Below are positions 14,957-49,124 of a DNA stretch of 64,000 bases, in pieces. The position numbers and the translations under genes are program-made. Source of the DNA: an uncultured Thermoanaerobaculia bacterium (GTDB lineage: Bacteria; Acidobacteriota; UBA4820; DSQY01); contig CAZDOY010000014.1 in assembly GCA_964507185.1 (NCBI GenBank), positions 3,298-67,297 on the forward strand, in the 5' to 3' direction. Numbering within the stretch: the first letter of the stretch is position 1; the number at the start of each line of letters is the position of its first letter. Under the pieces are notes generated by a model, which saw only the letters and a program-made list of their open reading frames with translations, was not told where the DNA came from and did no database searches.

Positions 14957-17900
14957 GGTTCCGTTTCCACGAGCCAGAGGATGCCGGTCAGCGGGATGTC
15001 CACCCAGGCCGGCCTGTTGTTGAGCTCATAGCCGAGTTCGTACACGGCCTTGTCGAGGAGATAGGCGCCCAGGAGCAGACCGGCGGTCGCTTCGCTGACC
15101 GCCAGCACGGGCGATTCGCCCGCCGTCTCCATGTAGCTCCGGAGGAATTCGCCGCTCACCGTGGTGTACCAGAAGTCCGCCCATGCTTTCGCGGGTTCCT
15201 CCTGGCCCCTCTTGATCATGCCGATCTCCACCTGGTGCTTGAAGGCCTGGTAGGCCGCGTAGTGAAAAGAGCGCAGCATGCCGGCCACGTCTCGGAAAGG
15301 CGACCTCTTGAGCTGGCGTTCCGCCAGGCTCCTCGCGGGCTCCCCCTCGAAGTCTATGACCGCGAAATCTTTGCCGGTATTGAGAACCTGCCCGAGATGA
15401 AAATCCCCGTGGCAGCGGATCCTGTTGGCGTCCAGCTTCCTGCCGAGGAGGCGCTTGAAGCGCTCGTTCACGGCCTTGTCGTTCGCCAGGACGCGCCGGA
15501 CTAAATCGGCCTTCGATTGCGGCACCGCGCCTCTCCTTTCGGAGAGCAGGTCCAGCGTCTGGCGCGCCAGGTTGCGCATGGACTGGTAGAGCGACCGCTG
15601 GTAAAGGGTGGTGAAGAGTTCGGGCGAAAACCGCGGGTCTTCGCTCCTGGACGCCAGCGCAATGTGCATCTCCGCCGTCCGGATGCCGAGCAGGCGGGCC
15701 GATTCCACGTAGGCGCCGACCAGGTCCACGCCTTCCTGGTTGATCTCTCCCGCGCTCCTCTCGAGGAGCGGCCTCCTGTCGAGGTACTCTTCCGGGGGTC
15801 CCGACGCAAAGGCAGCGTGCGTTAGGATTCTATCGAAGAAATGGGACAGCACGTTGAGCGTGTAGGTCCACGCGTCCCCGTGGTTCTCGACGTACCTGTG
15901 GAGAACGCCAAGGGTCATGGGCGCCTGCTTGCGCACCTCGTAACTGATGTGCCCGGCCAGCTGCGGCGCGTGGGGAAAACCGGCGCTCTCCGTCAGGAAC
16001 CGGCCTATTTCCAGCTCGGGGTTCTCCCCTCTCTCGAGCTTCCGGTAGAGCTTGAGAACGAATGCCTCGTCGTAGATGATGGACGTGTTGCTCTGCTCGG
16101 CCCCCACGACCTCGGCCTGGAGATCTTCGGCCGCCTTTCGGACGCCTCCGTTGATCTTTGCGTTCCTGTGTGTCGCCAGCACGCCGCGCCCGGCTTCGAC
16201 CTGCCGCCTCCGCGCGAACAGGTCGAGCAGGCGCCTGGGCAGCATCTGGCTGTACACGGCGTCGTAAAGCAGCCCTCTTCCGCCCCTCCCGGACAGATCC
16301 AGCCAGCATATCGCCGCCGCGGGGTGCGCCTCGAGCAGGGCCTGGCCTTCCTGGCCCTGCATGAAGGCGACGGGGAGCAGGTACGTTTCGGCATCGCCTT
16401 CCTGGTAGGCCACATCCAGGAGCACGAGCGCCGCCCTGTCGCCCCTGGCGCGCCCCTGCATCCAGATCACGTCCAGGACTTCGACGCCGGAGATGGTGCG
16501 GGACTTGCCTCCGAACCACCGGCTGCCCAGCAGGTAGCGGGGCAGCGCTCTTTCCAGCCTGCGAACGTTCCTGCCCTTCAAGATGGAATCCCACCCGTTC
16601 CTGGGAACGGAGAGCACGGGAAGTTCCCCTTCCGCCTGCCTGTGGGCGATGGCGTCCTCGTGGACCGGCGCCTCGAGCTCGAACCAGTAGAACCCGTAAG
16701 GGTTGAGCGCGAGGCAGTACGGGCAGTCGCGCACTTTTCCGAAACGCGTTCTACCAAAAAGCTCGACCGGCGTGTACCCCTCGAAGCCCTCGAGTTCTAT
16801 CTCAGCCTGCTGCGCGTGTCTCGACAGGTTGGCCACCACGAGGATAACCCCGCCCTCGTGGCGCCGCAGGTACGCCAGGACCTTGTTGTTCTGCGGATAG
16901 ACGAACTCGAACGACCCCCAGCCGAAGGCGCGGTGCTGGTTTCTCATGGCGATCAGTCTTTTCATCAGCCACCACAGGGAGTTCGGGTTGCCCTGCTGGG
17001 TCTCCACGTTGACCGCCGCGTAGTGGTAGCTCTGGTCGAGGATGAGCGGAAGGTAGAGCCGCTGGGGATTGGTGTTCGAGAAGCCCCCATTCCTGTCGGA
17101 GCTCCACTGCATGGGCGTGCGCACGCCGTCTCGATCCCCGAGGAAGATATTGTCGCCCATGCCTATCTCGTCGCCGTAATAGAGAACCGGCGTCCCCGGA
17201 AGCGACAGCAGCAGGGCGTTGAGCAGTTCGATTTTCCGGCGGTCGTTCCCGAGGAGCGGCGCGAGCCTGCGCCGTATGCCGATGTTGATCCGGGCCTGCG
17301 GGTCCGCCGCATAGGCCCTGTACATGTGGCTGCGCTCCTCGTCCGTGACCATTTCGAGCGTCAGCTCGTCGTGGTTCCGCAGGAAGATCGCCCACTGGCA
17401 CGACTCGGGAATCCGGGGCGTCTGCTGGAGTATGTCGACCAGGGGGAACCGGTCTTCCGCGCTCAGGGACATGAATAGCCTCGGCATGAGCGGGAAGTGG
17501 AAGTTCATGTGGCATTCGTCCCCCTCGCCGAAGTACGCCGCCGCATCCTCCGACCACTGGTTGGCCTCGGCGAGAAGCATCTTGTCCTTGAACCGGGCGT
17601 CGACGTGCGCCCTCAACTCCTTGAGGAAGACGTGCGTTTCAGGCAGATTCTCGCAGTTGGTCCCCTCGCGCTCGAAGAGGTAGGGCACGGCGTCGAGGCG
17701 CATGCCGTCCACGCCCATGCCGAACCAGAAATCGACGACCTTCAGAATCGCCCGGCGGACGTCCGGGTTGTCGAAATTGAGGTCGGGCTGATGGCTGTAG
17801 AACCTGTGCCAGTAGTAGGCCTTTGCCACAGGATCCCAGGCCCAGTTCGAGTTCTCGAAATCCGGAAAGATGATGCGGGTTCCCGCGTACCGATCCCGCG

Positions 17901-18348
17901 TTTCGCTCCACACGTAGAACCTGCGCGCCCGGCTGCCGGCGGGTGCCCTGCGCGCCCGCTGAAACCACGGGTGCTGGTCGGAGGTGTGGTTGATGACCAT
18001 TTCGGTGATCACCTTCAACCCCCGATTGTGCGCTTCATTGAGGAAGCGCTTGAAGTCCTTCACCGTCCCGTAGTCCGGGTTGACGCTGCAGTAATCGGCG
18101 ATGTCGTACCCGCCGTCCCTCAGCGGCGACGGGTAGAACGGCAGGAGCCACAGCGCCGTGACACCCAGGTCGCTCAGGTAATCGAGTTTCTCCGTCAGGC
18201 CGGCGAAATCTCCCGACCCGTCGCCATCCGAGTCCTTGAAGGCGCGGACGTGAAGCTCGTAGATGACGGCGTCCTTGTACCACCGGGGGTGTCCTTCCTG
18301 TCCCTGTGCACGCGATGTCTTCGGCTTCGTCATGGGTTCTTTCCGCAT
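14953..18348 (-). CDS. treS: Trehalose synthase (maltose alpha-D-glucosyltransferase) fused to maltokinase
   Basis: WYKDAVIYELHVRAF, GMRLDAVPYL, LLAEANQW, FLRNHDELTLE; C-terminal EQSNTSI, HGDFHLGQVL, VIDFEGEP. Start placed at the TGATG overlap with the glgE stop (alternative start 18333). The ORF-track extension to 19278 is spurious. Confidence 0.93.
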   Translation of the reverse strand: MRKEPMTKPKTSRAQGQEGHPRWYKDAVIYELHVRAFKDSDGDGSGDFAGLTEKLDYLSDLGVTALWLLPFYPSPLRDGGYDIADYCSVNPDYGTVKDFKRFLNEAHNRGLKVITEMVINHTSDQHPWFQRARRAPAGSRARRFYVWSETRDRYAGTRIIFPDFENSNWAWDPVAKAYYWHRFYSHQPDLNFDNPDVRRAILKVVDFWFGMGVDGMRLDAVPYLFEREGTNCENLPETHVFLKELRAHVDARFKDKMLLAEANQWSEDAAAYFGEGDECHMNFHFPLMPRLFMSLSAEDRFPLVDILQQTPRIPESCQWAIFLRNHDELTLEMVTDEERSHMYRAYAADPQARINIGIRRRLAPLLGNDRRKIELLNALLLSLPGTPVLYYGDEIGMGDNIFLGDRDGVRTPMQWSSDRNGGFSNTNPQRLYLPLILDQSYHYAAVNVETQQGNPNSLWWLMKRLIAMRNQHRAFGWGSFEFVYPQNNKVLAYLRRHEGGVILVVANLSRHAQQAEIELEGFEGYTPVELFGRTRFGKVRDCPYCLALNPYGFYWFELEAPVHEDAIAHRQAEGELPVLSVPRNGWDSILKGRNVRRLERALPRYLLGSRWFGGKSRTISGVEVLDVIWMQGRARGDRAALVLLDVAYQEGDAETYLLPVAFMQGQEGQALLEAHPAAAICWLDLSGRGGRGLLYDAVYSQMLPRRLLDLFARRRQVEAGRGVLATHRNAKINGGVRKAAEDLQAEVVGAEQSNTSIIYDEAFVLKLYRKLERGENPELEIGRFLTESAGFPHAPQLAGHISYEVRKQAPMTLGVLHRYVENHGDAWTYTLNVLSHFFDRILTHAAFASGPPEEYLDRRPLLERSAGEINQEGVDLVGAYVESARLLGIRTAEMHIALASRSEDPRFSPELFTTLYQRSLYQSMRNLARQTLDLLSERRGAVPQSKADLVRRVLANDKAVNERFKRLLGRKLDANRIRCHGDFHLGQVLNTGKDFAVIDFEGEPARSLAERQLKRSPFRDVAGMLRSFHYAAYQAFKHQVEIGMIKRGQEEPAKAWADFWYTTVSGEFLRSYMETAGESPVLAVSEATAGLLLGAYLLDKAVYELGYELNNRPAWVDIPLTGILWLVETEP

Positions 18349-20327
18349 CAGCGCCGCGAGGGTCGCACGCCCCGTCTCCCGCTGTTCTTGACCAGCAGAA
18401 TGTGGGCGGGCTGCTTCTGCGGGGCCAGTTCGACGAAGTTCCTCGCCCCGTTCCAGGCGTAGGTCTCCCCGCCCAGCAGGTCCTCCACGCTGAATGCCGC
18501 CCCGTCGACCGCCAGGTCCTCGAGCTTCAGGTTCGTCCATCCCGACTGTCGATTGCGCGGATCGAGGTTCACCACCGTCAGGATGACGTTCGTCCCGTTC
18601 TCGGTGCGCTTGCTGTAGGCGAGGAGCTGGGGATTGTCGGTGTCGTGAAAGACCAGGCCGTCGTTGGCCTGCAGGGCGGGGTTGTCCCGCCGGATGCCGT
18701 TCACCCTTGCGATCAGCTCCCGCAGGCTGTCCGGGCGGTCCCTGTCCCAGTGCCTGATCTCGTATTTTTCCGAGTTCCGGTATTCTTCGCTCCCCGGCCG
18801 CCGCGGCGTGCCGACGCAGAGCTCGAACGCGGGACCGTAAATGCCGTAACTGGCGCCCAGGGTGGCCGCGAGCACAAGCCTGACGGCGAACGCGGGCCGC
18901 CCGCCCGTCTGCAGGTATTCGTGGAGAATGTCCGGCGTGTTCGCGAAGAAGTTGGGCCTGAAGAAATCCCTGACCGGCGGGCGGGTCAGTTCGGTCAGGT
19001 ACTCCCTGAGTTCCCACCCCTGGTTTCGCCACGTGAAGTAGGAGTAGGACTGCGTGAATCCGATCATGGCCAGATGATACATCACCTTCGGACGCGTGAA
19101 GGCTTCCGACAGGAAGATCGTGCCCGGATGCGCGCGCTTGATGCCCCCGATGCACCATTCCCAGAATCGAAAGGCCTTCGTGTGCGGGTTGTCCACGCGG
19201 AAGATCCCTACCCCGTTGTCGATCCAGAACTCGAACACGCTCCTGAGTTCCTTCCAGAGCGCTTTCCAGTCCCGGCATTCCAGGTCCAGGGGATAGATGT
19301 CCTCGTACTTCTTAGGTGGGTTCTCGGCGAAGCGGATCGACCCGTCCGGCCGGCTCTTGAACCAGTCCGGATGATCCTTGACGTACGGGTGGTCCGGTGA
19401 GCACTGGAATGCCACGTCCAGGGCGATCTCCAATCCGTACCCGCGCGCCGCTTCCACCAGCGTCCTGAAATCTTCGAGCGTGCCCAGCTCCGGATGGATC
19501 GCCTTGAATCCGCCGAGTTCGCTCCCGATGGCCCACGGGCTGCCCGGGTCCCCGGGGCGGCACTCGAGGGCGTTGTTCGCCCCCTTCCTGTTCGTGACGC
19601 CTATGGGGTGAATGGGGGGCAGGTACAGCACGTCGAAGCCCATGGATGCGACGTAGGGAAGGACGTCCACGCAATCCATGAAGGTCCCGTGCCTGCCGGG
19701 TTTGGAGGAACACGACCGCGGAAACATTTCGTACCAGGAGCCGAAACGGGCCCGCGGCCTGTCGACGGTTGCGCGAAGAACGCGCGGATAAACGGACGCG
19801 TTTTTCCGCTCGTCGAGCGACAACATGAGGCCCGCCGTACGGGGCTCCGCCGCCCTCTCGAAGCGCTTTTCCGGGGCCGCATCGCCCGTCATGAAATCCG
19901 CGATCGTCTCCAGATATTTGCGGTCCGGTGCCGAGGCCCGTCCCGACGCTTCGCGCAGAAGGGAGGCGCCCTCGAGGAACTCCGGATCGACGTCCATGCC
20001 CGCCTCGATCTTCTTTGCCGTGTGGCCGCACCACGTCCGGAAGCGGTCGATCCAGGCGAGGACCGTGTATTCGTAGGGAGCCAGTTCCGTGACCTGAAAA
20101 CGTCCGGTCCACCGGTCGTTTACCATCGGCTCCATCCGAACCTCGGTCCACTTTCTCCGTCCCCTGCGCCTGTATCGGAGCAGGCAGGTGATGACGTCGT
20201 ATCCGTCGGCGAACGCATCCGCCTCCACGACCATCCACTCGCCCACCACGCGTTTGGCCGGATAGAGCCCTTCTTCGACCTCGGGGCTGACGTTCTTGAT
20301 GACGACCCTCTTCATAGCGTCTTCCAT
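18348..20327 (-). CDS. glgE: Alpha-1,4-glucan:maltose-1-phosphate maltosyltransferase
   Basis: SWYEMFPRS, YLPPIHPIG, PGSPWAIG, FAENPPKKYEDIYP, FRVDNPHTK, FLSEAFTRP, NTPDILH, SEKYEIR. Confidence 0.95.
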   Translation of the reverse strand: MEDAMKRVVIKNVSPEVEEGLYPAKRVVGEWMVVEADAFADGYDVITCLLRYRRRGRRKWTEVRMEPMVNDRWTGRFQVTELAPYEYTVLAWIDRFRTWCGHTAKKIEAGMDVDPEFLEGASLLREASGRASAPDRKYLETIADFMTGDAAPEKRFERAAEPRTAGLMLSLDERKNASVYPRVLRATVDRPRARFGSWYEMFPRSCSSKPGRHGTFMDCVDVLPYVASMGFDVLYLPPIHPIGVTNRKGANNALECRPGDPGSPWAIGSELGGFKAIHPELGTLEDFRTLVEAARGYGLEIALDVAFQCSPDHPYVKDHPDWFKSRPDGSIRFAENPPKKYEDIYPLDLECRDWKALWKELRSVFEFWIDNGVGIFRVDNPHTKAFRFWEWCIGGIKRAHPGTIFLSEAFTRPKVMYHLAMIGFTQSYSYFTWRNQGWELREYLTELTRPPVRDFFRPNFFANTPDILHEYLQTGGRPAFAVRLVLAATLGASYGIYGPAFELCVGTPRRPGSEEYRNSEKYEIRHWDRDRPDSLRELIARVNGIRRDNPALQANDGLVFHDTDNPQLLAYSKRTENGTNVILTVVNLDPRNRQSGWTNLKLEDLAVDGAAFSVEDLLGGETYAWNGARNFVELAPQKQPAHILLVKNSGRRGVRPSRR

Positions 20328-38183: not shown

Positions 38184-38199
38184 GTTACCTTCTGGTAAC
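38184..38199. promoter_or_regulatory. Perfect palindrome GTTACC-N4-GGTAAC, candidate enhancer-protein site
   Basis: Lies about 120 bp upstream of a sigma54-type promoter, with an AT-rich tract between them. Confidence 0.45.
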
Positions 38200-38320
38200 A
38201 CCCCTGTTCGTAAAGGGAAACATCAGAGGCTTTACAATCTGTGCAAGAAGGTGAACTCTTCTCCTATTTATTCTTATTTATTATAGCTCTTATCCCATCC
38301 GTTCCGAGTGTTCTCCCGAG

Positions 38321-38336
38321 TGGCAGGCTTCTTGCT
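38321..38336 (+). promoter_or_regulatory. sigma54 (-24/-12) promoter candidate
   Basis: TGGCAGGCTTCTTGCT against the consensus TGGCACG-N4-TTGC(A/T); 67 nt upstream of the GGDEF-EAL gene. Confidence 0.7.
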
Positions 38337-38402: not shown

Positions 38403-40904
38403 GTGAAGCATCGGGTGGAGGCAAAGTTGGCTGGAAAGGTCACAAAGAAACTGCTCGAAGTCGTTCTGAGGCACTCGCCCAACGCGGTATGCGTGCTGGC
38501 CGAGGACGGGCGGTTCTGCTACGCGAACGATGCGGCCATTTCCGCGCTCGGCTACGAGCAGGCCGACATGGCCGGCCTGAATTTCTTCGAGCGGGTGCAT
38601 CCGGACGACATGTCCCGCCTGAAGGACCGCCTTGAACGGGCGGAAGACGGGGAGTACGCGTCGGCTTCGGTCATCATCCGGGTCCTCAAGGGCGGCGACC
38701 GCTGGACCACCATGGAGGCCTTCGTCACACGTGAGGGCGACGAAGCCGATTCTCCTCTCCTCCTGGTCTATTTGAGCGATACGTCCCGGAGACTTGAAAC
38801 GGAGGGGCGCCTTAAGAAGCTCTCGAGCGCCGTCGAGCACATAGATGAATCCGTCGTGATCACCAACAGGAACGGTGTCGTCGAATACGTGAACAACGCC
38901 TTCGAGAGAACGACCGGCTACACCAAGGAGGAGGTCATCGGAAAGACCCCCGCCATCCTGAAATCCGGCAAACACGACCAGGCCTTCTACAAGTGGATGT
39001 GGGACACGATCCTTGCCGGCGAGTCCTTCCACGGCACCGTCATCAACAAGAGGAAAGACGGCACGCTCTACTATGAACAAAAGACAATTTCGCCCCTCAT
39101 AGATGCGGATGGAATCGTGACCCACCACGTTGCGACCGGCATGGACGTCACCCACAACAAGCTCGCCGAAGAGCGTCTCAGGGCGGGAGTCGAACGCTAT
39201 GCGCTGTCCGTGAGGGGCGCGAACGACGGGCTCTGGGACTGGGACTTCCGGACGGGGCACCTCCATCTCTCCGAGCGCTGGAAAACCATGCTGGGCTTAT
39301 CGAGGGACGAACTCGGCAATACCATCGACGATTGGTTCCGTCTCGTCCATCCCGACGACCTCGCCGAATTGAAAACGCTCATGAAGGCCCATATCGAAGG
39401 CACGACCTCCCACTTCGAGCACGAACACCGGATGCGCCACAAAGACGGAGGGTACTGCTGGGTCCTGACCCGCGGGCTGGTCGTGCGGGACAGCGACGCC
39501 AAGGCCTACAGAATGGCGGGCTCTCAGACGGACATCACGGACAGAAAGATGGCCGAGGAGCAGCTTCAGCACGACGCCCTCCACGACGCCCTGACGGGGC
39601 TTCCCAACCGGACGCTTTTCATGGACAGGCTCGGTCTGGCCATCGCCAGGGCCAAGAGGAGCGAGACGTGCCACTTTGCGGTGATGTTCATGGATCTCGA
39701 CCGGTTCAAGATCATCAACGACAGCCTCGGTCACCTGGCCGGGGACCAACTGCTCATCGAGCTGGCCAACAGGGTCAAGGGGTGTCTTCGAGCGTCGGAT
39801 ACGGTCGCCCGCCTGGGCGGAGACGAATTCGCCATGCTTCTTGAAAACACCCAGAGTGACAAAGAGATCACGCTTTTCGCCGAGAGGGTTCAGACTTGTA
39901 TCGCCGAGCCCTTCCGGATCGGATCGCGCGACGTCTTCACCTCTGCGAGTATCGGAATCGCGCAATATGACGACGCGTACAGCCGGCCGGATGACATGGT
40001 CCGGGACGCCGACACCGCCATGTACCACGCCAAGAATCACGGAAAGGCCCACTATACGGTCTTCTCACCCAGCATGCGATCGAGGGCGCTTCAGATCCTC
40101 GACCTGGAAACGGGTCTGAGGCGGGCGATCGAATCCCAGCAACTGACGGTCCACTACCAGCCCATCGTGTCGCTGAAGTCCGGGCGAATATTCGGATTCG
40201 AGGCCCTTTCCCGGTGGCCGCATCCCGAACGCGGCTTTATCTCGCCCGAGGAATTCATCCCGCTCGCGGAAGAGACAGGCCTCATAAACACCATCGGCCT
40301 GCTCGTTCTGCGAAAGGCCTGTCTCTACCTCAAGTCCATCCAGGGGCGGTTCCGGACCCACCCGCCGCTTACCATGAGCGTGAACCTCTCGGGCATCCAG
40401 TTCATGCGCCCGGAACTCCTCGGCCAGGTGGACCTCATGCTGAGGGAGTACGGGTTGGACCCCCGGACCCTCAAGCTGGAAATCACCGAAAGCGTCATCA
40501 TCGACCACGCCGAGTACGCGCGCGAAATGATCGACCAGATGAAGGCCCAGAATATTCGCCTCAGCATCGACGACTTCGGAACGGGGTATTCTTCCCTCCG
40601 CAGCCTCAGGCAGTACCCCATCGACACGGTCAAGATAGATCAGTCCTTCGTCGCCACCATGTGCGAGAACGAAGAGAGCCTCGAGATCGTTCGGACCACC
40701 GTATCCATGGCCCACAAGCTCCGAATGGAGGTGATTGCGGAGGGCGTGGAAGCGAAGAAGCAGATGGACCTCCTTGCATCCATGGACTGCGACTTCGGAC
40801 AAGGCTTTTACTTCGCCCGGCCGATGGAACAGGATGCCGCCGACGCCATACTGGCGCGCCAGAGCCATTGGTGGCAGGGGGAAGCGATCGACGCCGAAGC
40901 CTGA
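38403..40904 (+). CDS. Cytoplasmic PAS-PAS-PAS-GGDEF-EAL c-di-GMP enzyme
   Basis: Three PAS/PAC units; HDALTGLPNR, RLGGDEF with an RxxD I-site (RASD); FEALSRW, IDDFGTGYSSL, KIDQSF, IAEGVE are all intact. Confidence 0.95.
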   Translation: MKHRVEAKLAGKVTKKLLEVVLRHSPNAVCVLAEDGRFCYANDAAISALGYEQADMAGLNFFERVHPDDMSRLKDRLERAEDGEYASASVIIRVLKGGDRWTTMEAFVTREGDEADSPLLLVYLSDTSRRLETEGRLKKLSSAVEHIDESVVITNRNGVVEYVNNAFERTTGYTKEEVIGKTPAILKSGKHDQAFYKWMWDTILAGESFHGTVINKRKDGTLYYEQKTISPLIDADGIVTHHVATGMDVTHNKLAEERLRAGVERYALSVRGANDGLWDWDFRTGHLHLSERWKTMLGLSRDELGNTIDDWFRLVHPDDLAELKTLMKAHIEGTTSHFEHEHRMRHKDGGYCWVLTRGLVVRDSDAKAYRMAGSQTDITDRKMAEEQLQHDALHDALTGLPNRTLFMDRLGLAIARAKRSETCHFAVMFMDLDRFKIINDSLGHLAGDQLLIELANRVKGCLRASDTVARLGGDEFAMLLENTQSDKEITLFAERVQTCIAEPFRIGSRDVFTSASIGIAQYDDAYSRPDDMVRDADTAMYHAKNHGKAHYTVFSPSMRSRALQILDLETGLRRAIESQQLTVHYQPIVSLKSGRIFGFEALSRWPHPERGFISPEEFIPLAEETGLINTIGLLVLRKACLYLKSIQGRFRTHPPLTMSVNLSGIQFMRPELLGQVDLMLREYGLDPRTLKLEITESVIIDHAEYAREMIDQMKAQNIRLSIDDFGTGYSSLRSLRQYPIDTVKIDQSFVATMCENEESLEIVRTTVSMAHKLRMEVIAEGVEAKKQMDLLASMDCDFGQGFYFARPMEQDAADAILARQSHWWQGEAIDAEA

Positions 40905-44494: not shown

Positions 44495-44920
44495 TCAGTA
44501 AGCGATGGGCGGATCCTTCGAAGCGCTCTGAAAGGAAAGCCCCAGGACGACGTTGTCGTCCTTGATCGTGCTGTACGTGACGACGGCGTCAACATACCCG
44601 TTCGCAAAGGTGCACACGACGTGTATGTGCCACTCGATGCCGTCCACTTCCGTGGCCTTCACCTCGCGGTCCTGGAAGGGACCGAATTCGTCGAGAAGGG
44701 ACTGCCACTTCTTCTGGAGCCGTTCCGCCGTCAGGGTCTTGGCCAGCTCCGGCGAAAACTGCCCCACGGCCTGCTCGAAGTTGCCGGCGCTGATCAGGTC
44801 CACGACGTAGCTCGCCTCGTCCGCAGGCGCGGCACCCAGCGCGTCGCCCGAACCGAGGTACTGCGCGCGCGCCACCAGGCAGACGGACAAGAGAAGGGGC
44901 AGGACCAGGAGCTTCTTCAT
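44495..44920 (-). CDS. Exported DUF3887-like protein
   Basis: Signal peptide MKKLLVLPLLLSVCLVARA; L.AG.FEQAVGQF..ELAK.LT.E.LQKKWQ.L..EFGPF pattern; AAGGAG RBS. Confidence 0.7.
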   Translation of the reverse strand: MKKLLVLPLLLSVCLVARAQYLGSGDALGAAPADEASYVVDLISAGNFEQAVGQFSPELAKTLTAERLQKKWQSLLDEFGPFQDREVKATEVDGIEWHIHVVCTFANGYVDAVVTYSTIKDDNVVLGLSFQSASKDPPIAY

Positions 44921-44974
44921 GACGGGCGTCTCCTTGATGCGGCCCGGCCCGCACATGGGCCGGATACCGGAATG

Positions 44975-45601
44975 CTATCGCCTGTGCCTTCCCGCGTGCC
45001 CGCCCGCGTGCCCGCCCCTGGAGGGCATCGGGGACGGCATGGGCATGGGCATCGGCCTGGGGCTGAAGCGGGGGCGGCCGCGCGGCACACGCACGGGAGG
45101 CGCCGTGTTCACCGGCGGGCGCCTTCGGTGACGGACGCGGTCGGCCGAGGCACCGCCCCTGCGAGGATTCTCGTTCTGGATGACGACGGGTTTCGGAGCC
45201 GGATGCGCGTGAGGGTGCCCATGCCGGGAACGATGCCGGTATATCCAGGGATCAGGCAGAAAACCCCGGTAGAGGTTATTCCAACCCGTCCAGAGGTACA
45301 TGCCGCCGTAGTAGCCGTGCCAGTCGTACCAGCCGCCACCCAACATCCAGTTCATGTACCACTGCGGCCCCCATCCCGGCCAGTCCCAGGGCGCCCACTC
45401 CGCGCTGAAATAGTCGGGCGTCCAGTCGTATCCGTACCAGCTCCCGCAGTTCCATGCCCAAACCGGGCCGCCCGCGGATACGGTCATGACCGAGAAAGGT
45501 CGAACCGGGAAGACGGGGCTGGCCGCCGAGTGCGAGACCGGCACGGCAAGGCACACGATTGCGAGGGTCGCGGCGACCAGGATTGCCTTGTGCTTCATCA
45601 T
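44975..45601 (-). CDS. Secreted Trp/Tyr-rich protein with an Arg/Pro-rich tail, paralog 1
   Basis: GGAGG RBS 6 nt before the ATG at 45601; signal peptide MMKHKAILVAATLAIVCLAVPVSHSA; two blocks of clear homology to 46082..46666. Confidence 0.8.
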   Translation of the reverse strand: MMKHKAILVAATLAIVCLAVPVSHSAASPVFPVRPFSVMTVSAGGPVWAWNCGSWYGYDWTPDYFSAEWAPWDWPGWGPQWYMNWMLGGGWYDWHGYYGGMYLWTGWNNLYRGFLPDPWIYRHRSRHGHPHAHPAPKPVVIQNENPRRGGASADRVRHRRRPPVNTAPPVRVPRGRPRFSPRPMPMPMPSPMPSRGGHAGGHAGRHRR

Positions 45602-45710
45602 TTCAAACCTCCCAAGCGCGGGTTTCATGGCATATCCCCTTCTCTCCGCGGCCTGGAGGCCGCATGATCCGAGCGGCCCTGGACTCGATCCAATGACGAT
45701 ACGACAAATC

Positions 45711-45733
45711 AAGCTAGCCCGCTGCCAATGACA
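45711..45733 (-). promoter_or_regulatory. sigma54-type promoter candidate for paralog 1
   Basis: GTCAT-TGGCAGCGGGCTAGCT; GG and GC at canonical -24/-12 spacing; matched by the paralog 2 promoter. Confidence 0.6.
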
Positions 45734-45809
45734 ATATAGGGTGCAAACCCGCCGCGTGCACAGGTTGCGCCCGGCTGTCAGGTCCCGGCCTGTTCTCGAC
45801 CTCGAATTT

Positions 45810-45827
45810 AGTCCGAAAAACCGGACA
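45810..45827. promoter_or_regulatory. Near-palindrome AGTCCG-N6-CGGACA, candidate enhancer (UAS) for paralog 1
   Basis: 83 bp from the -24 box; the same motif recurs at 46877. Confidence 0.6.
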
Positions 45828-45846
45828 CTCTTGCGGCGGCCGGTGC

Positions 45847-45996
45847 GATGCCCCGGCGATCTTCGGCAACAACGTCTTTCTGGCCAACGGCTGGTACGAG
45901 ATCACCGTCAGTGTCGACGGCGGCCCGCCCGCCAGATTCCGGTTCGGCGTAGGGGCTCACAACGATGCCGAAACGCCCCTCAACATGAACGACTGA
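45847..45996 (+). pseudogene. Orphan 3' gene fragment (DAPAIFGNNVFLANGWYEITVSVDGGPPARFRFGVGAHNDAETPLNMND*)
   Basis: Strong GC3 codon bias and a protein-like sequence. No in-frame ATG, GTG or TTG occurs between the upstream stop (45715-45717) and this block. Confidence 0.45.
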
Positions 45997-46081
45997 GCGC
46001 CTCGGGGGCCTTCCTCCCGGCTTGCAGGGTCCATCTCCACCACACCGATCGGGTCTTCCTGCGATAACAGACAGGGCATGT

Positions 46082-46666
46082 TCAGCGCCCGTGCCGGCCG
46101 CCGCCGCCCGCGGCAACCACCGGTGCTCTCGGCATCATCACCGGCGCGGAGGGCATGGGGCGCGGGCGCACGCGGGGACGGCCACGGGGAACCCTGGCCG
46201 GAGCAGCGCTGGTTTCGGATGGCCGCCTTCGGCCTTTCACGCTTTTGCTGGAAGCGCCGCCGTGTCGCGGGTGCGCGTTTTGTATTTCGACCGGCCCCGG
46301 AGCATTATGCCGGTCCTGATCGCCGCGGCGGTGGGGTCTCCAGTACTTCCACGCAAAGGGCACGTAACCCTTGTAGAAATAGTAGTTCCCGCCGGTCCAC
46401 CACAGGTGCGGCACGTACGACAGGCTTTGGAGACCCAGCCCGGAACCGTTCCAGGGCGCCCACTCCGCGCTGAAGTAGTCGGGCGACCACTCCACTCCCG
46501 ACCACGCCCCGCAGGACCAGGCCCAGACGGGGCCGCTGCCGGAGATCATCGTTATCCTGAAGGAGCTGACGGGAAAAAGCCCTCTCGCCGAGAGACCGGT
46601 CACCGGAATGGCGGTGAGCAATAGGACGAATGCCGCCCATACGATGAATCTCTTCTTTTTACTCAT
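46082..46666 (-). CDS. Secreted Trp/Tyr-rich protein with an Arg/Pro-rich tail, paralog 2
   Basis: Signal peptide MSKKKRFIVWAAFVLLLTAIPVTGLSA; homology blocks shared with paralog 1. Confidence 0.8.
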   Translation of the reverse strand: MSKKKRFIVWAAFVLLLTAIPVTGLSARGLFPVSSFRITMISGSGPVWAWSCGAWSGVEWSPDYFSAEWAPWNGSGLGLQSLSYVPHLWWTGGNYYFYKGYVPFAWKYWRPHRRGDQDRHNAPGPVEIQNAHPRHGGASSKSVKGRRRPSETSAAPARVPRGRPRVRPRPMPSAPVMMPRAPVVAAGGGGRHGR

Positions 46667-46777
46667 TTCGCCGACCCCCTTATCGAAGCTCTAATATCAC
46701 CGCTTCTGTTCAAAAAGCCTCTGGCCCCATGTCCTATTTGTCCTGGCAGTCGTACTCACGGGTTCCATTTTGTCACG

Positions 46778-46799
46778 AGCAAGCCGTATGCCGATGACG
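46778..46799 (-). promoter_or_regulatory. sigma54-type promoter candidate for paralog 2
   Basis: GTCAT-CGGCATACGGCTTGCT; GGCA…TTGCT at canonical spacing. Confidence 0.65.
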
Positions 46800-46876
46800 T
46801 TCCTGCGACCAAATGCGAGCCCCGCAAAGTCCTACGGCAATGACGGGGCAGCCTTTCCGTCCAGGATGACGGAGCC

Positions 46877-46894
46877 TGTCCGGAATTGCGGACA
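46877..46894. promoter_or_regulatory. Perfect palindrome TGTCCG-N6-CGGACA, candidate enhancer (UAS) for paralog 2
   Basis: 84 bp from the -24 box, just past the hflC stop. Confidence 0.65.
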
Positions 46895-46904
46895 CAGGCG
46901 GCCG

Positions 46905-47870
46905 CTAGCGCATGCGCTTCAGGTACCGGTACAGCTCCGAATCCGTGGAGAGGATCATGACGCCCCGGTCGTCCATCGTCGTGCGGTAGGTCTTGAGCGT
47001 TTCCACGAAGCGGTACAGGTCGGGGTCCCGACTGTAGGCCTCTGCGTAGATCTTCGTGGACTGGGCCTCGCCGTCGCCGAGTATCTCCTGCGCTTTCCGG
47101 TAGGCCTCGGACTGGATCCGCTTGGACTCCTCCGTGACCTGCCCGGCAATCTCGGCCTTCTTGCCCTGCCCGAGCGCCCTGTATTTTTCCGCGATCCTCA
47201 GCTGCTGGCTGATCATCCGGTCGTAGACCTTGCGAAGCACCTTCTGGGTGTAGTCGAGGCGCTTGATCTCCAGATCCACGAGGTCTATCCCGAGGTTGAG
47301 CTCCTTAAGGCGCTTCTTTGCCGCCTTCGTGATTTCCGTTGTCAGTTCTTCCCGCAGGCCCCTCACGGGCTCCTGGGCATCCTTGGAGTCCGAGCCGCCC
47401 GACATGCCGCCCTCCGATGCCTCGATGGCCTCCTCCCCCAGGTCCATGTGCCTGTTCGAGGATCGAACGACTTCGAGAAGCGTATGCGCCGATAGAGTGT
47501 CTCTCACGAGTCCGTCGAGAATGTCGTCGAGCCGACCCTGGCCGCCCTCCTGGTTGGTCACTTTCTTGTAAAAAGTCAGGGCGTTCGAAATGCGCCACCT
47601 GGCAAAGGAGTCCACGAAAATGAACTTGGAGTCCTTGGTCGGGATCACCTCGGGATCGCCGTCCCACTCCAATATCCGCTTGTCAAAATAATGGACATCC
47701 TGTACGAGCGGGATCTTCCAGTGCAGACCGGCTTGCGTGACCGGCTGCCCCACAGGGGAGCCGAGCTGGACGACGACCGCCTGCTCGTACTCGGGGACGG
47801 TGAAGAGGAACATCTTGCCCAGGATTATGAGGACGACCAGGAGAACGACGCCCGCGATGACCTTTCTCAT
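46905..47870 (-). CDS. hflC: Protease modulator HflC (SPFH domain)
   Basis: N-terminal TM; GLHWKIPLVQDV..FDKRIL, VDSFARWRI, VYDRMISQ, IYAEAYSRDPDLYRFVETLKTY. Confidence 0.92.
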   Translation of the reverse strand: MRKVIAGVVLLVVLIILGKMFLFTVPEYEQAVVVQLGSPVGQPVTQAGLHWKIPLVQDVHYFDKRILEWDGDPEVIPTKDSKFIFVDSFARWRISNALTFYKKVTNQEGGQGRLDDILDGLVRDTLSAHTLLEVVRSSNRHMDLGEEAIEASEGGMSGGSDSKDAQEPVRGLREELTTEITKAAKKRLKELNLGIDLVDLEIKRLDYTQKVLRKVYDRMISQQLRIAEKYRALGQGKKAEIAGQVTEESKRIQSEAYRKAQEILGDGEAQSTKIYAEAYSRDPDLYRFVETLKTYRTTMDDRGVMILSTDSELYRYLKRMR

Positions 47871-48877
47871 TGGGCACCTCCTTTCTTCCCGGTCGTCCCC
47901 GCCGACCGGAAATCGAGGAGAGGCATCATGTTCTTAAGCGATTCATCCACCACGTAGACCTGACGGAGGCGCGGCAGGACCTGTCGCATGGTCTCCAGGA
48001 AGAGACGGCGGCGTGTCACCTCCGGCGCCTTTCGATACTCCCGAAGGAGCTTCGTAAAGCGCGCCGCGTCACCTTTCGAGCGGTTGATCCTCTCCACCCG
48101 GGTGCCTTCGGCCTCCTTGACGGTCTGTTCGGCCTCGCCCTTGACCCTGTAAATGACCTTGTTGTACTCCTGGTAGGCCTGGTTGATGGCCTGGTCCATT
48201 TCCTGGCGCGCCCGGTTGACCTCGTCGAACGAGTCCTTGACCGGGGCCGGGGGATGGACGTCCTGGAGCTGGACCAGCTTGATATCCACACCGCAGTTAT
48301 ACAGATCGAGCATCTTCTGCATCCTGTCCTTGACGGCCAGTTCGATGGCCTGCCGCTTCAGGCGGATGACCTCGTTGAAGGACTCGTCCCCGACCACGGC
48401 CCGCATGGTGGCTTCGGAAACGTCCCTGATTGTGCCCGGAACGTCCCTGACGGCGAAGAGATACTTTCTGGGATCGCGGATGCGATATTGAACCACCCAC
48501 GTCACCGTGGCGATATTCTGGTCCCCGGTTAGCATGTCCGATTCTTTCGTGTAGTCCTCTTCGGAGTAGTGCGACCGCACTCCGGCTCTATCGGTTCTGA
48601 AGCCGAATTCTTCCTTGAACTGGTAGTCGGTCTTAACCAGGTAGACCTTGTCCACGCCGAATGCGATCTTGAGGTGCGGCCCCGGTTTTGCCGATTTAAT
48701 GTAGCGCCCGAAGCGCAGGACCACCCCCCTCTCGTTGGGCTCCACCTGGTAGTAGGACGTCGCCACCAGGACGATCAGCACGATGAGCGCCAAGCCTCCG
48801 GTTATCGCCCTCGCCGTGCCCTTAGGGGACAGCCCTCGTTTCAGGTTGTCCACCGCGTCTTTGAACCTGTCGTCCAT
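47867..48877 (-). CDS. hflK: Protease modulator HflK (SPFH domain)
   Basis: VVLRFGRY, MLTGDQNIA, VQYRIRDP, VQLQDVHPP, FDEVNRARQ, A.GD..RF, TRRRLFLETM; ATGA overlap with hflC. Confidence 0.92.
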   Translation of the reverse strand: MDDRFKDAVDNLKRGLSPKGTARAITGGLALIVLIVLVATSYYQVEPNERGVVLRFGRYIKSAKPGPHLKIAFGVDKVYLVKTDYQFKEEFGFRTDRAGVRSHYSEEDYTKESDMLTGDQNIATVTWVVQYRIRDPRKYLFAVRDVPGTIRDVSEATMRAVVGDESFNEVIRLKRQAIELAVKDRMQKMLDLYNCGVDIKLVQLQDVHPPAPVKDSFDEVNRARQEMDQAINQAYQEYNKVIYRVKGEAEQTVKEAEGTRVERINRSKGDAARFTKLLREYRKAPEVTRRRLFLETMRQVLPRLRQVYVVDESLKNMMPLLDFRSAGTTGKKGGAQ

Positions 48878-49124
48878 TCTCTCTCCCTCCCCGATGCGTA
48901 CACTGAGCACGAGATCACGTGGCCGCGACTGCGTCCGGCGGTTCCTCCTCGGTCGATCGTCGCGTCGGCCTTACCTGGCGATCCTCCTGTTGCGTCTTTT
49001 CAATGTTACCAGCCGATGCGCATCGGGACAAATGCCCCGACAACCGTCACGACCGCCGCGCCTGTCGTTGAGTCAGGTCCCCGTGACGGCCGTCACGCTT
49101 GCCGCTACGCCTCCCCCGAGGCTA

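What the first reader, a model, noticed from the sequence alone, without database searches (positions are those of the whole stretch)
45711..46894. Duplicated sigma54 promoter plus identical palindromic enhancer upstream of both Trp-rich genes
Seen directly: both genes carry GTCAT[T/C]GGCA[G/T]NNGGCT[A/T]GCT, with GG and GC at -24/-12 spacing, 112 and 113 nt before their start codons. Both also carry a TGTCCG-N6-CGGAC[A/T] palindrome 83 and 84 bp further upstream, while the sequence between these elements is not recognisably conserved. Established: sigma54 promoters need a bacterial enhancer-binding protein (bEBP) that binds inverted repeats roughly 80-150 bp upstream. Inference: purifying selection has kept a shared regulon architecture, so both genes are live and co-induced by one bEBP encoded outside the window. 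The motif gives a handle on the rest of the regulon.
Basis: partly seen in the sequence, partly recalled or inferred. Interest (0 to 1): 0.75.

Follow-up and report, generated by a model that had tools for sequence, protein, structure and literature searches.

The report
Conserved sigma-54 promoters with shared enhancer
Two neighbouring genes for secreted, tryptophan-rich proteins in an uncultured Acidobacteriota genome each carry a sigma-54-type promoter and the same 18-bp palindrome about 100 bp upstream, and relatives keep both at the same spacing, so this is very probably a real but ordinary kind of activator-dependent switch.

Summary
Both minus-strand genes, A (44975-45601) and B (46082-46666), carry a -24/-12 box: TGGCAG-N5-TAGC at 45712-45727 and CGGCAT-N5-TTGC at 46778-46793. 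Each also has TGTCCG-N6-CGGAC[T/A] starting 100 or 101 bp upstream of its box.

A box alone is no better than chance in this window. The support comes from the combination and from comparison:
- Six further distinct loci from related Acidobacteriota carry both elements, 100-102 bp apart.
- Between the A and B lineages the palindrome arms are 92% identical, while loop, spacer and 5'UTR are 32-37% identical.
- The duplication is old (dS about 1.5), and both genes are under purifying selection (dN/dS 0.2-0.4).
- In unrelated metagenome contigs the same palindrome lies between enhancer-binding-protein (bEBP) genes and canonical sigma-54 promoters.

The window contains no rpoN gene and no bEBP gene, and I had no transcript data.

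The proteins are an orphan family: three clusters among 1.84 billion representatives, no Pfam or NCBIfam match, and no usable structure model.

Verdict: a new member of a known kind of regulatory system, of moderate to low interest.

The parts
44975..45601 (-). Gene A: 208-aa secreted Trp/aromatic-rich protein with an Arg/Pro/His-rich C-terminal tail. An alternative in-frame start lies at 45628.
   Evidence: ORF with a GGGAGG Shine-Dalgarno sequence. It is 41% identical to B. The orthologue P0001 is 90% identical, with dN/dS 0.31. No Pfam or NCBIfam match.
46082..46666 (-). Gene B: 194-aa paralogue with the same architecture (signal peptide, Trp-rich core, basic Pro-rich tail).
   Evidence: P0002 is the same protein. 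It occurs unchanged in 5 other samples. dN/dS against orthologues is 0.35-0.41.
45712..45727 (-). Sigma-54-type -24/-12 box of gene A: TGGCAG-CGGGC-TAGCT. The predicted TSS is near 45701, giving a 5'UTR of about 100 nt.
   Evidence: The orthologue L001 has TGGCAGCGGGCTTGCA and L008 has TGGCAGAGGACTTGCA. The TSS is inferred from the rule that the C of GC lies at -12.
46778..46793 (-). Sigma-54-type -24/-12 box of gene B: CGGCAT-ACGGC-TTGCT. The predicted TSS is near 46767, giving a 5'UTR of about 101 nt.
   Evidence: Orthologues L002, L006, L004 and L007 have TGGCAT or TGGCAA, then N5, then TTGC.
45810..45827 (.). Putative upstream activating sequence of gene A: TGTCCG-GTTTTT-CGGACT (minus-strand reading). 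Its centre lies about 117 bp upstream of the predicted TSS.
   Evidence: It is identical in L001. Its start lies 100 bp upstream of the box start.
46877..46894 (.). Putative upstream activating sequence of gene B: the perfect palindrome TGTCCG-N6-CGGACA. Its centre lies about 118 bp upstream of the predicted TSS and it starts 10 nt after the hflC stop codon.
   Evidence: The arms are invariant in L002, L004, L006 and L007 while the 6-nt loop varies.
46856..46873 (.). Possible second, weaker site in the B lineage: TCCGTC-N6-GACGGA, 21 bp centre to centre from the main palindrome. Only the right arm, GGACGGAA, is well conserved.
   Evidence: Read from the alignment and the spacers. GGACGGAA is present in winB, L002, L006, L004 and L007. 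The left arm is degenerate and there is no clear equivalent upstream of gene A.
46905..48910 (-). hflK (47867-48910) and hflC (46905-47870), both Band_7 family. They are the conserved upstream neighbours of this gene family.
   Evidence: ORFs. Band_7 genes lie immediately upstream in L001-L005 and L109-L110.

Best explanation
Genes A and B are old paralogues in an uncultured Acidobacteriota genome. They encode exported proteins with a Trp-rich core and an Arg/Pro-rich tail. Each is transcribed from its own sigma-54 (RpoN) promoter.

By the established mechanism, RNA polymerase carrying sigma-54 binds the GG (-24) and GC (-12) elements as a closed complex that cannot open DNA on its own. A hexameric AAA+ enhancer-binding protein (NtrC family) bound to the 18-bp inverted repeat TGTCCG-N6-CGGACA would reach the polymerase by DNA looping and use ATP hydrolysis to open the promoter. 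The repeat is centred about 117-118 bp upstream of the predicted start site.

Both genes carry the same repeat arms at the same helical phase. They are therefore expected to be switched on together by one activator, which is encoded elsewhere in the genome and responds to an unknown signal.

What is shown: the elements, their fixed spacing, their selective conservation, and the recurrence of this exact palindrome next to bEBP genes elsewhere. What is inferred: sigma-54 dependence, the start sites (about 45701 and 46767), activator binding and co-induction.
For: - Both elements are present at both genes.
- Eight distinct loci (window A and B, L001, L002/L003, L004/L005, L006, L007, L008) all carry TGTCCG-N6-CGGAC followed by YGGCA-N6-T[T/A]GC. 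The palindrome-to-box offset is 100-102 bp and the box lies 104-114 nt from the ATG.
- A-versus-B identity is 92% in the palindrome arms and 70% in the box, with GGCA......T.GC invariant. It is 32% in the loop, 37% in the spacer and 36% in the 5'UTR.
- dS between A and B is 1.54, so recent duplication cannot explain the shared motifs. dN/dS of 0.2-0.4 shows both genes are functional.
- The palindrome occurs nowhere else in the window plus about 60 kb of distinct related loci, apart from one 1-mismatch hit inside a coding region.
- No sigma-70-like promoter, no Rfam family and no conserved RNA fold offers an alternative reading.
- The palindrome hairpin lacks a U-tract.
- A metagenome scan for the composite pattern found 8 loci (6 independent) where the same palindrome lies between a Sigma54_activat + HTH_8 gene and a canonical YTGGCAC-N5-TTGC promoter.
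- The palindrome fits the published GlrR/QseF site consensus TGTC-N10-GACA (PMC3045617).
- In Desulfovibrio vulgaris most sigma-54 promoters lie within 100 nt of their EBP site (PMC4641369).
- RpoN was found in all 3 Acidobacteria genomes surveyed in PMC3372290.
Against: - Neither rpoN nor any bEBP gene is visible in the window or within 10 kb of any orthologous locus. Their presence in this genome rests on what is known of the phylum.
- Each window copy departs from consensus at a usually conserved position: A has TAGC instead of TTGC, and B has CGGCA instead of TGGCA. Both deviations are fixed in 5 other samples of the same species.
- Only one clear palindrome is present per promoter, whereas many bEBPs use two or more sites. 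The second site is weak and specific to the B lineage.
- The spacer has no IHF-like site; the best match has at least 3 mismatches.
- In the metagenome scan the gap lengths were not enriched at 82-84 nt, and no other target from this lineage was recovered.
- A third paralogue clade (L011, L108) lacks both elements, so the architecture is not universal in the family.
- No expression data were available.
Confidence: 0.8

Rival explanations
1. The palindrome is an operator for an ordinary (non-AAA+) transcription factor, or a 3' RNA hairpin or terminator of the upstream hflKC operon. On this reading it has no link to the -24/-12-like box.
For: In B-type loci the palindrome starts about 10 nt after the hflC stop codon. 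With its flanks it folds better than shuffled sequence (dG -16.7 kcal/mol, z = -2.6).
Against: - No U-tract follows it, and the terminator scan does not call it.
- The A-type palindrome folds no better than shuffles (z = -0.46). It lies about 175-250 nt from the preceding stop codon.
- Its distance to the box is fixed at 100-102 bp in all loci.
- The loop varies freely while the arms are invariant, which fits a dimeric DNA-binding protein.
- The same palindrome lies beside bEBP genes elsewhere.
Confidence: 0.08
2. The -24/-12-like box is not used by sigma-54. On this reading transcription starts from another promoter type, such as an ECF or housekeeping sigma factor of Acidobacteriota whose consensus is not covered by the tools. 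The GG/GC conservation would then reflect that promoter or another protein site.
For: - Generic sigma-54 consensus matches are at chance level in the window.
- Both window boxes deviate from consensus.
- The simple sigma-70 scan may not suit Acidobacteriota.
- A paralogue clade uses a different, sigma-70-like upstream region.
Against: - GG-N10-GC spacing is invariant, and the flanks match TGGCA...TTGC[A/T] in 8 loci.
- The box is tied to a distal palindrome at enhancer distance.
- That palindrome is paired with canonical sigma-54 promoters and bEBP genes in other bacteria.
Confidence: 0.07
3. The shared motifs are leftovers of the tandem duplication that produced A and B. They have no present function, or one copy is decaying.
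For: The two genes are adjacent paralogues. Each window box carries one deviation from the orthologue consensus.
Against: - dS between A and B is about 1.5, and spacer identity is 37%, so neutral sequence has been randomised while the arms stayed 92-100% identical.
- Single-copy orthologues in other genomes keep the same elements.
- Both ORFs are intact, under purifying selection and unchanged in 5 samples.
Confidence: 0.03

Closest known systems
GlrR (QseF)-dependent sigma-54 promoters of glmY/glmZ in Enterobacteriaceae
   Same: An NtrC-family activator binds inverted repeats with the consensus TGTC-N10-GACA upstream of a sigma-54 promoter (PMC3045617). TGTCCG-N6-CGGACA fits that consensus exactly.
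   Different: GlrR uses three sites and needs IHF; here there is one clear site and no IHF-like sequence. GlrR targets are small RNAs, not secreted proteins. The phylum is different. No glrK/glrR-like genes lie nearby. The resemblance may only reflect a common half-site preference of Fis-type HTH domains.
Metagenomic bEBP loci carrying the identical palindrome
   Same: The exact TGTCCG-N6-CGGACA lies 72-87 nt (palindrome end to box start) upstream of a YTGGCAC-N5-TTGC promoter. This is the same logic of one palindrome plus a sigma-54 box.
   Different: In those loci the activator gene (PAS or REC, then AAA+, mostly with HTH_8) sits next to its presumed target. The targets are metabolic or transport genes, read from their first residues as CoA-transferase, acyl-CoA dehydrogenase, AMP-ligase, FAD oxidase and transporters; these readings were not tested. 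Most have a gap about 10 bp shorter, at 73-76 nt. Here the activator is remote and the targets are orphan secreted proteins.
NtrC/glnAp2 and NifA/nif paradigms of enhancer-dependent sigma-54 transcription (my own knowledge)
   Same: GG/GC promoter elements with 10-nt spacing, a palindromic upstream activating sequence about 100-150 bp upstream, and a requirement for DNA looping. The NifA site TGT-N10-ACA and the TyrR box TGTAAA-N6-TTTACA share the TGT...ACA outer bases. The TyrR box also shares the 6-N6-6 geometry.
   Different: The half-site sequence differs. Tandem sites are not evident here, and the regulated genes have no link to nitrogen or aromatic amino-acid metabolism.
PspF/psp and other sigma-54 control of cell-envelope functions (my own knowledge; compare the remark in PMC4641369 that many sigma-54 operons concern the bacterial exterior)
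   Same: The sigma-54-controlled genes encode exported or envelope proteins and sit next to the membrane-quality-control genes hflK and hflC.
   Different: There is no homology to Psp proteins, and the link to envelope stress is only positional.

Membership tests
Sigma-54 (RpoN)-dependent promoter | Invariant GG (-24) and GC (-12) dinucleotides separated by exactly 10 nt | tested here: met
   Both window boxes and all 6 other distinct loci meet it. GGCA......T.GC is invariant in the 8-locus alignment.
Sigma-54 (RpoN)-dependent promoter | Good fit to the extended consensus YTGGCACG-N4-TTGCW | tested here: inconclusive
   Each window copy has 2 mismatches to TGGCAC-N5-TTGCW, a level found 20 times in the window by chance. 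Orthologues fit better, for example TGGCAGCGGGCTTGCA and TGGCAAGGCGCTTGCA.
Sigma-54 (RpoN)-dependent promoter | rpoN present in the genome; the TSS lies about 12 nt after the GC; expression is lost without RpoN | not testable with these tools
   Only 64 kb of the genome is available and it has no rpoN. The literature reports RpoN in all 3 Acidobacteria genomes surveyed (PMC3372290).
bEBP upstream activating sequence (enhancer) | Inverted repeat roughly 80-150 bp upstream of the sigma-54 promoter, with its position locked to the promoter rather than to neighbouring genes | tested here: met
   The offset is 100-102 bp in 8 loci, while the distance to the upstream stop codon ranges from about 10 to 250 nt. 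The arms are conserved and the loop and spacer are not.
bEBP upstream activating sequence (enhancer) | The same motif is associated with bEBP genes and sigma-54 promoters elsewhere | tested here: met
   Six independent metagenome loci have the palindrome between a Sigma54_activat gene and a canonical promoter.
bEBP upstream activating sequence (enhancer) | Two or more sites to nucleate the hexamer, and/or an IHF bend | tested here: inconclusive
   A second imperfect repeat lies 21 bp away in the B lineage only. No IHF consensus has fewer than 3 mismatches.
bEBP upstream activating sequence (enhancer) | Physical binding by a cognate bEBP and activation at a distance | not testable with these tools
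   This needs EMSA or DAP-seq and reporter assays. The cognate activator has not been identified.
GlrR/QseF regulon | TGTC-N10-GACA sites | tested here: met
   TGTCCG-N6-CGGACA fits the consensus quoted in PMC3045617.
GlrR/QseF regulon | Three activator sites plus IHF sites, glmY/glmZ-type targets, and a glrK-glrR two-component system | tested here: not met
   There is one clear site and no IHF-like site. The targets are protein-coding orphans. No such genes lie in the window. It is therefore not filed as a member.
Rho-independent terminator (for the palindrome) | GC-rich stem followed by a U-run | tested here: not met
   The terminator scan does not call it and no T-run follows either palindrome.

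The most novel reading that the evidence does not exclude
The two genes would belong to a previously unseen class of sigma-54-switched secreted effectors restricted to one small Acidobacteriota lineage. Each has an aromatic, Trp-rich core fused to a strongly cationic Pro/Arg-rich tail (for example RVPRGRPRVRPRP). From my own knowledge, that tail resembles proline/arginine-rich and Trp-rich antimicrobial peptides. On this reading the proteins are envelope-active or antimicrobial-like factors released on demand, and the palindrome is the operator of an uncharacterised, widespread bEBP clade that this lineage has recruited for them.
Probability: 0.1. Interest if true: 0.6.

Novelty: new member of a known kind. 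Interest (0 to 1): 0.33.

Why it matters
Sigma-54 regulation in Acidobacteriota has hardly been studied experimentally, and most members of the phylum are uncultured. A promoter-plus-enhancer pair with this much comparative support gives a testable regulatory unit: two defined start sites, a defined 18-bp operator, and a prediction of co-induction. It controls an orphan family of exported Trp-rich, highly basic proteins that always lies beside hflKC.

The scan also shows that TGTCCG-N6-CGGACA recurs as an operator type next to bEBP genes in diverse bacteria. That could help assign binding motifs to uncharacterised activators.

It does not reveal a new mechanism. It is a good annotation and a lead for finding the activator and the function of the proteins.

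Tried and rejected
- **Pfam and NCBIfam on genes A and B:** no match.
- **Homologue searches:** the word-indexed search of 5.8 billion proteins gave 7 clusters. The exhaustive HMMER profile search of 1.84 billion representatives gave 3. No remote relatives give a clue to function.
- **AlphaFold2 on the 8-sequence alignment:** mean pLDDT 40 and pTM 0.15, which is unusable, so no fold search was run.
- **Rfam on 44800-47100 at E up to 1:** nothing.
- **RNAalifold on the eight 5'UTRs:** no consensus pairs. Single-sequence folds are no better than shuffles (z about -0.4). A riboswitch or leader structure is rejected.
- **Sigma-70 scan:** none found.
- **IHF consensus in the spacers:** no convincing site.
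- **Search for the activator or rpoN:** nothing in the window or within 10 kb of the orthologues.
- **Metagenome scan for further regulon members:**
  - It returned 96 stretches, with no excess at the 82-84 nt gap.
  - None of the downstream ORFs I listed begins like the Trp-rich family, judged by eye without an HMM search.
  - It shows the motif class is widespread but did not extend this regulon.
- **Literature search for the exact motif:** no paper. A search for TGTCCG together with sigma-54 terms returned only primer sequences in the one hit I opened. A 2025 sigma-54 regulon survey does not mention Acidobacteria.
- **Hypotheses rejected:** the palindrome as the hflKC terminator, and the motifs as a residue of recent duplication. 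See the rival explanations.
Full report
**1. What is in the sequence**

The region 44975-46894 holds two minus-strand genes.
- Gene A (44975-45601) encodes 208 aa. It has a GGGAGG ribosome-binding site, and an alternative in-frame ATG lies at 45628.
- Gene B (46082-46666) encodes 194 aa.
- The two proteins are 41% identical over 173 aligned residues.

Each protein has an N-terminal signal peptide. Each also has a conserved core, GPVxAWxCGxWxGxxWxPDYFSAEWAPW, followed by more aromatic residues. In total 23-31% of the core is W, Y or F. The C-terminal tail is 25-33% Arg/Lys/His and about 20% Pro. The mature proteins have a pI of about 11.

hflK and hflC lie immediately upstream on the same strand. 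A DUF3887 gene, a SnoaL-like gene and a signal peptidase gene lie downstream.

**2. Check of the observation**

- Box A: GTCATTGGCAGCGGGCTAGCT, with the 16-mer at 45712-45727.
- Box B: GTCATCGGCATACGGCTTGCT, with the 16-mer at 46778-46793.
- Palindrome A: TGTCCGGTTTTTCGGACT at 45810-45827.
- Palindrome B: TGTCCGCAATTCCGGACA at 46877-46894.

GG and GC are 10 nt apart in both boxes. The boxes end 111 and 112 positions before the ATG. The palindromes start 100 and 101 bp before the boxes.

Tested for chance:
- The palindrome is clearly unusual: 8 strand-hits at up to 1 mismatch against 1.08 expected, and no shuffle of 100 reached 8.
- The box alone is not unusual. Matches to TGGCAC-N5-TTGCW with up to 2 mismatches occur 20 times against 20.7 expected.
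- The shared 15-mer box pattern is only mildly enriched: 2 against 0.49 expected, with 9 of 100 shuffles reaching 2.

From this window alone, then, only the combination of the two elements is significant.

**3. Comparative evidence**

*The family is tiny.*
- The word-indexed search of 5.8 billion proteins found seven clusters.
- The exhaustive HMMER profile search of 1.84 billion representatives found three.
- There is no Pfam or NCBIfam match.
- The GTDB-representative scan names the carriers as uncultured Acidobacteriota MAGs.

*The elements are conserved across loci.* I fetched the encoding contigs. They give eight distinct loci: window A, window B, L001, L002/L003, L004/L005, L006, L007 and L008.
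- Every locus has TGTCCG-N6-CGGAC[A/T/G] and YGGCA-N6-T[T/A]GC.
- The offset between the two elements is 100-102 bp in every case.
- The box lies 104-114 nt from the start codon.
- Most orthologue boxes are closer to the sigma-54 consensus than the window copies, for example TGGCAGCGGGCTTGCA in L001 and TGGCAAGGCGCTTGCA in L004.

*Only the elements are conserved.* In the eight-locus alignment the invariant columns spell TGTCCG......CGGAC and GGCA......T.GC. Identity between the A and B lineages is:

| Region | Identity |
|---|---|
| Palindrome arms | 92% |
| Box | 70% |
| Palindrome loop | 32% |
| Spacer | 37% |
| 5'UTR | 36% |

Between the two B sub-lineages the arms are 100% identical and the spacer 49%.

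*The duplication is old and both genes are functional.* Synonymous divergence between A and B is saturated (dS 1.54). dN/dS is 0.20-0.41 in all comparisons. Recent duplication therefore cannot explain the shared motifs, and both genes are under purifying selection. Five other samples contain the same species at 99.95% identity or more, and four of those five contigs show the same tandem arrangement. The same box sequences are present wherever the contigs reach.

*Position follows the promoter, not the neighbouring gene.* The palindrome starts about 10 nt after the hflC stop in B-type loci. It lies about 175 nt after that stop in L001 and about 250 nt after the stop of B for window gene A. It occurs nowhere else in the window plus about 60 kb of distinct related loci, apart from one 1-mismatch hit inside a coding region at 23960.

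**4. Alternatives examined**

- The simple scan finds no sigma-70-like promoter in 44900-47000.
- There is no Rfam family.
- The 5'UTRs have no conserved RNA structure, and single-sequence folds are no better than shuffles.
- The B palindrome with its flanks does fold better than shuffles (z = -2.6). The A palindrome does not (z = -0.46). Neither is followed by a U-run, so a terminator reading fails.
- The spacers have no IHF-like site.

**5. Independent support that this palindrome is a bEBP operator**

I scanned the metagenome collection for TGTCCG-N6-CGGACW-N{72,94}-TGGCA-N6-TTGC. This returned 96 stretches.

What the scan did not show:
- None of the downstream ORFs I listed begins like the Trp-rich family. 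I judged this by eye and did not run an HMM search.
- Gap lengths show no peak at 82-84 nt. There is only an excess at 72-76 nt.
- The scan therefore did not extend this regulon, and many hits must be chance.

What it did show:
- In eight loci (six independent) the exact palindrome lies directly between a gene with Sigma54_activat and AAA_lid_14 domains and a canonical YTGGCAC-N5-TTGC promoter.
- Five of the six scanned activators also have an HTH_8 domain.
- Those promoters face metabolic or transport genes.
- The six independent loci are L018/L042, L048/L063, L022, L086, L094 and L096. Their contigs range from 50% to 69% GC.

bEBP genes are a very small fraction of genes, so adjacency in 6 of about 90 independent hits is far above expectation. 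This is my own estimate, with no formal control run.

From the literature:
- The palindrome fits the published GlrR/QseF consensus TGTC-N10-GACA (PMC3045617).
- In Desulfovibrio vulgaris most sigma-54 promoters lie within 100 nt of their EBP site (PMC4641369).
- RpoN was present in all three Acidobacteria genomes surveyed in PMC3372290.

**6. Mechanism proposed**

Sigma-54 polymerase would sit on the boxes in a closed complex. The predicted start sites are about 45701 for A and 46767 for B, giving 5'UTRs of about 100 nt. An NtrC-family AAA+ activator bound at the palindrome, centred near -117 or -118, would loop over and open the promoter using ATP. Because both genes carry the same arms at the same phase, one activator should induce both.

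A conserved GGACGGAA lies 21 bp (centre to centre) from the main site in the B lineage (window 46856-46873). It may be a second, weaker site.

The activator and rpoN are not in the window or within 10 kb of any orthologue. That part remains inference.

**7. Weak points**

- Each window box has one departure from a usually conserved base: TAGC in A and CGGCA in B.
- Only one strong site is present per promoter.
- There are no transcript data.
- A third paralogue clade (L011, L108/P0008) lacks both elements. It has a different conserved upstream region, so the architecture belongs to the copies linked to hflKC and not to the whole family.

**8. What the proteins are**

This remains unknown. Structure prediction failed, with a mean pLDDT of 40. 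What can be said is that they are exported, very basic, rich in aromatic residues, confined to one Acidobacteriota lineage and always next to hflKC. The Pro/Arg-rich tail recalls cationic antimicrobial peptides. That is my own recollection and was not tested.

**9. Verdict**

I put about 0.8 on a sigma-54 promoter plus bEBP enhancer.

This is a new member of a well-known kind of system. It is interesting mainly as a clean, testable regulatory unit in a poorly studied phylum and as a lead to an orphan secreted protein family. Interest is about 0.33.

Noticed in passing
window 38184-38336 (+), upstream of ORF 38403-40904: A second sigma-54-like box, TGGCAGGCTTCTTGCT (38321-38336, 1 mismatch to consensus), lies 67 nt before a PAS-GGDEF-EAL gene. 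A different palindrome, GTTACC-TTCT-GGTAAC (38184-38199), lies about 130 bp upstream of it. In L001 the box is identical and the repeat reads GTAACC-TTCT-GGTTAC, so both arms changed and the palindrome was kept. This is probably another enhancer-dependent promoter, with a different activator.
   Followed up: partly
window 45841-45990 (+), between genes B and A: An open frame ending ...IFGNNVFLANGWYEITVSVDGGPPARFRFGVGAHNDAETPLNMND* looks like the C-terminal remnant of a gene on the opposite strand. It may be debris from the rearrangement that put A behind B. It has no NCBIfam match.
   Followed up: partly
L011 1120-1755; L108 1310-1954 (P0008): A third, divergent paralogue clade (211-214 aa) precedes the same DUF3887, SnoaL-like and signal peptidase genes as window gene A. 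It has neither the palindrome nor the -24/-12 box. Its short upstream region conserves CTTGCGCG...CCATATTAG, which looks like a sigma-70-type promoter.
   Followed up: partly
window 45658-45666 and 46723-46731 (5'UTRs, minus strand CATGCGGCC / CATGGGGCC): A short motif, CRTGSGGCC, is conserved in the 5'UTR of all eight loci about 40-60 nt before the start codon. It has no conserved RNA fold and no Rfam match, and it remains unexplained.
   Followed up: partly
window 45628 (-): Gene A has an in-frame ATG 9 codons upstream (MKPALGRFEMMKHK...) with its own purine-rich ribosome-binding site. The same extension is open in L001 and L008, so the true start and the 5'UTR length (about 73 or 100 nt) are uncertain.
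   Followed up: no
L043, L044, L069, L070, L071, L073 (soil metagenome contigs): A family of about 110-aa exported proteins (MTRVAVLMVA...GKTHD[MVL]KGT...) carries TGTCCGC[CG]GGAGCGGACA 73-74 nt before a GTGGCAT-N5-TTGCT box. It is another small secreted protein under this palindrome plus a sigma-54 box.
   Followed up: no
L002/L003 (P0004): P0004 has a signal peptide and upstream region nearly identical to window gene B, but a core and tail like the A type. This suggests recombination between the two paralogue lineages.
   Followed up: no
window 10859-19278 (-): Two very large fused alpha-glucan genes. One is 1365 aa (Glyco_hydro_77/MalQ plus CBM_48 and alpha-amylase domains). The other is 1441 aa (alpha-amylase with a maltokinase N-cap, TreS-Mak-like). 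A GH57/DUF3536 gene lies next to them.
   Followed up: no
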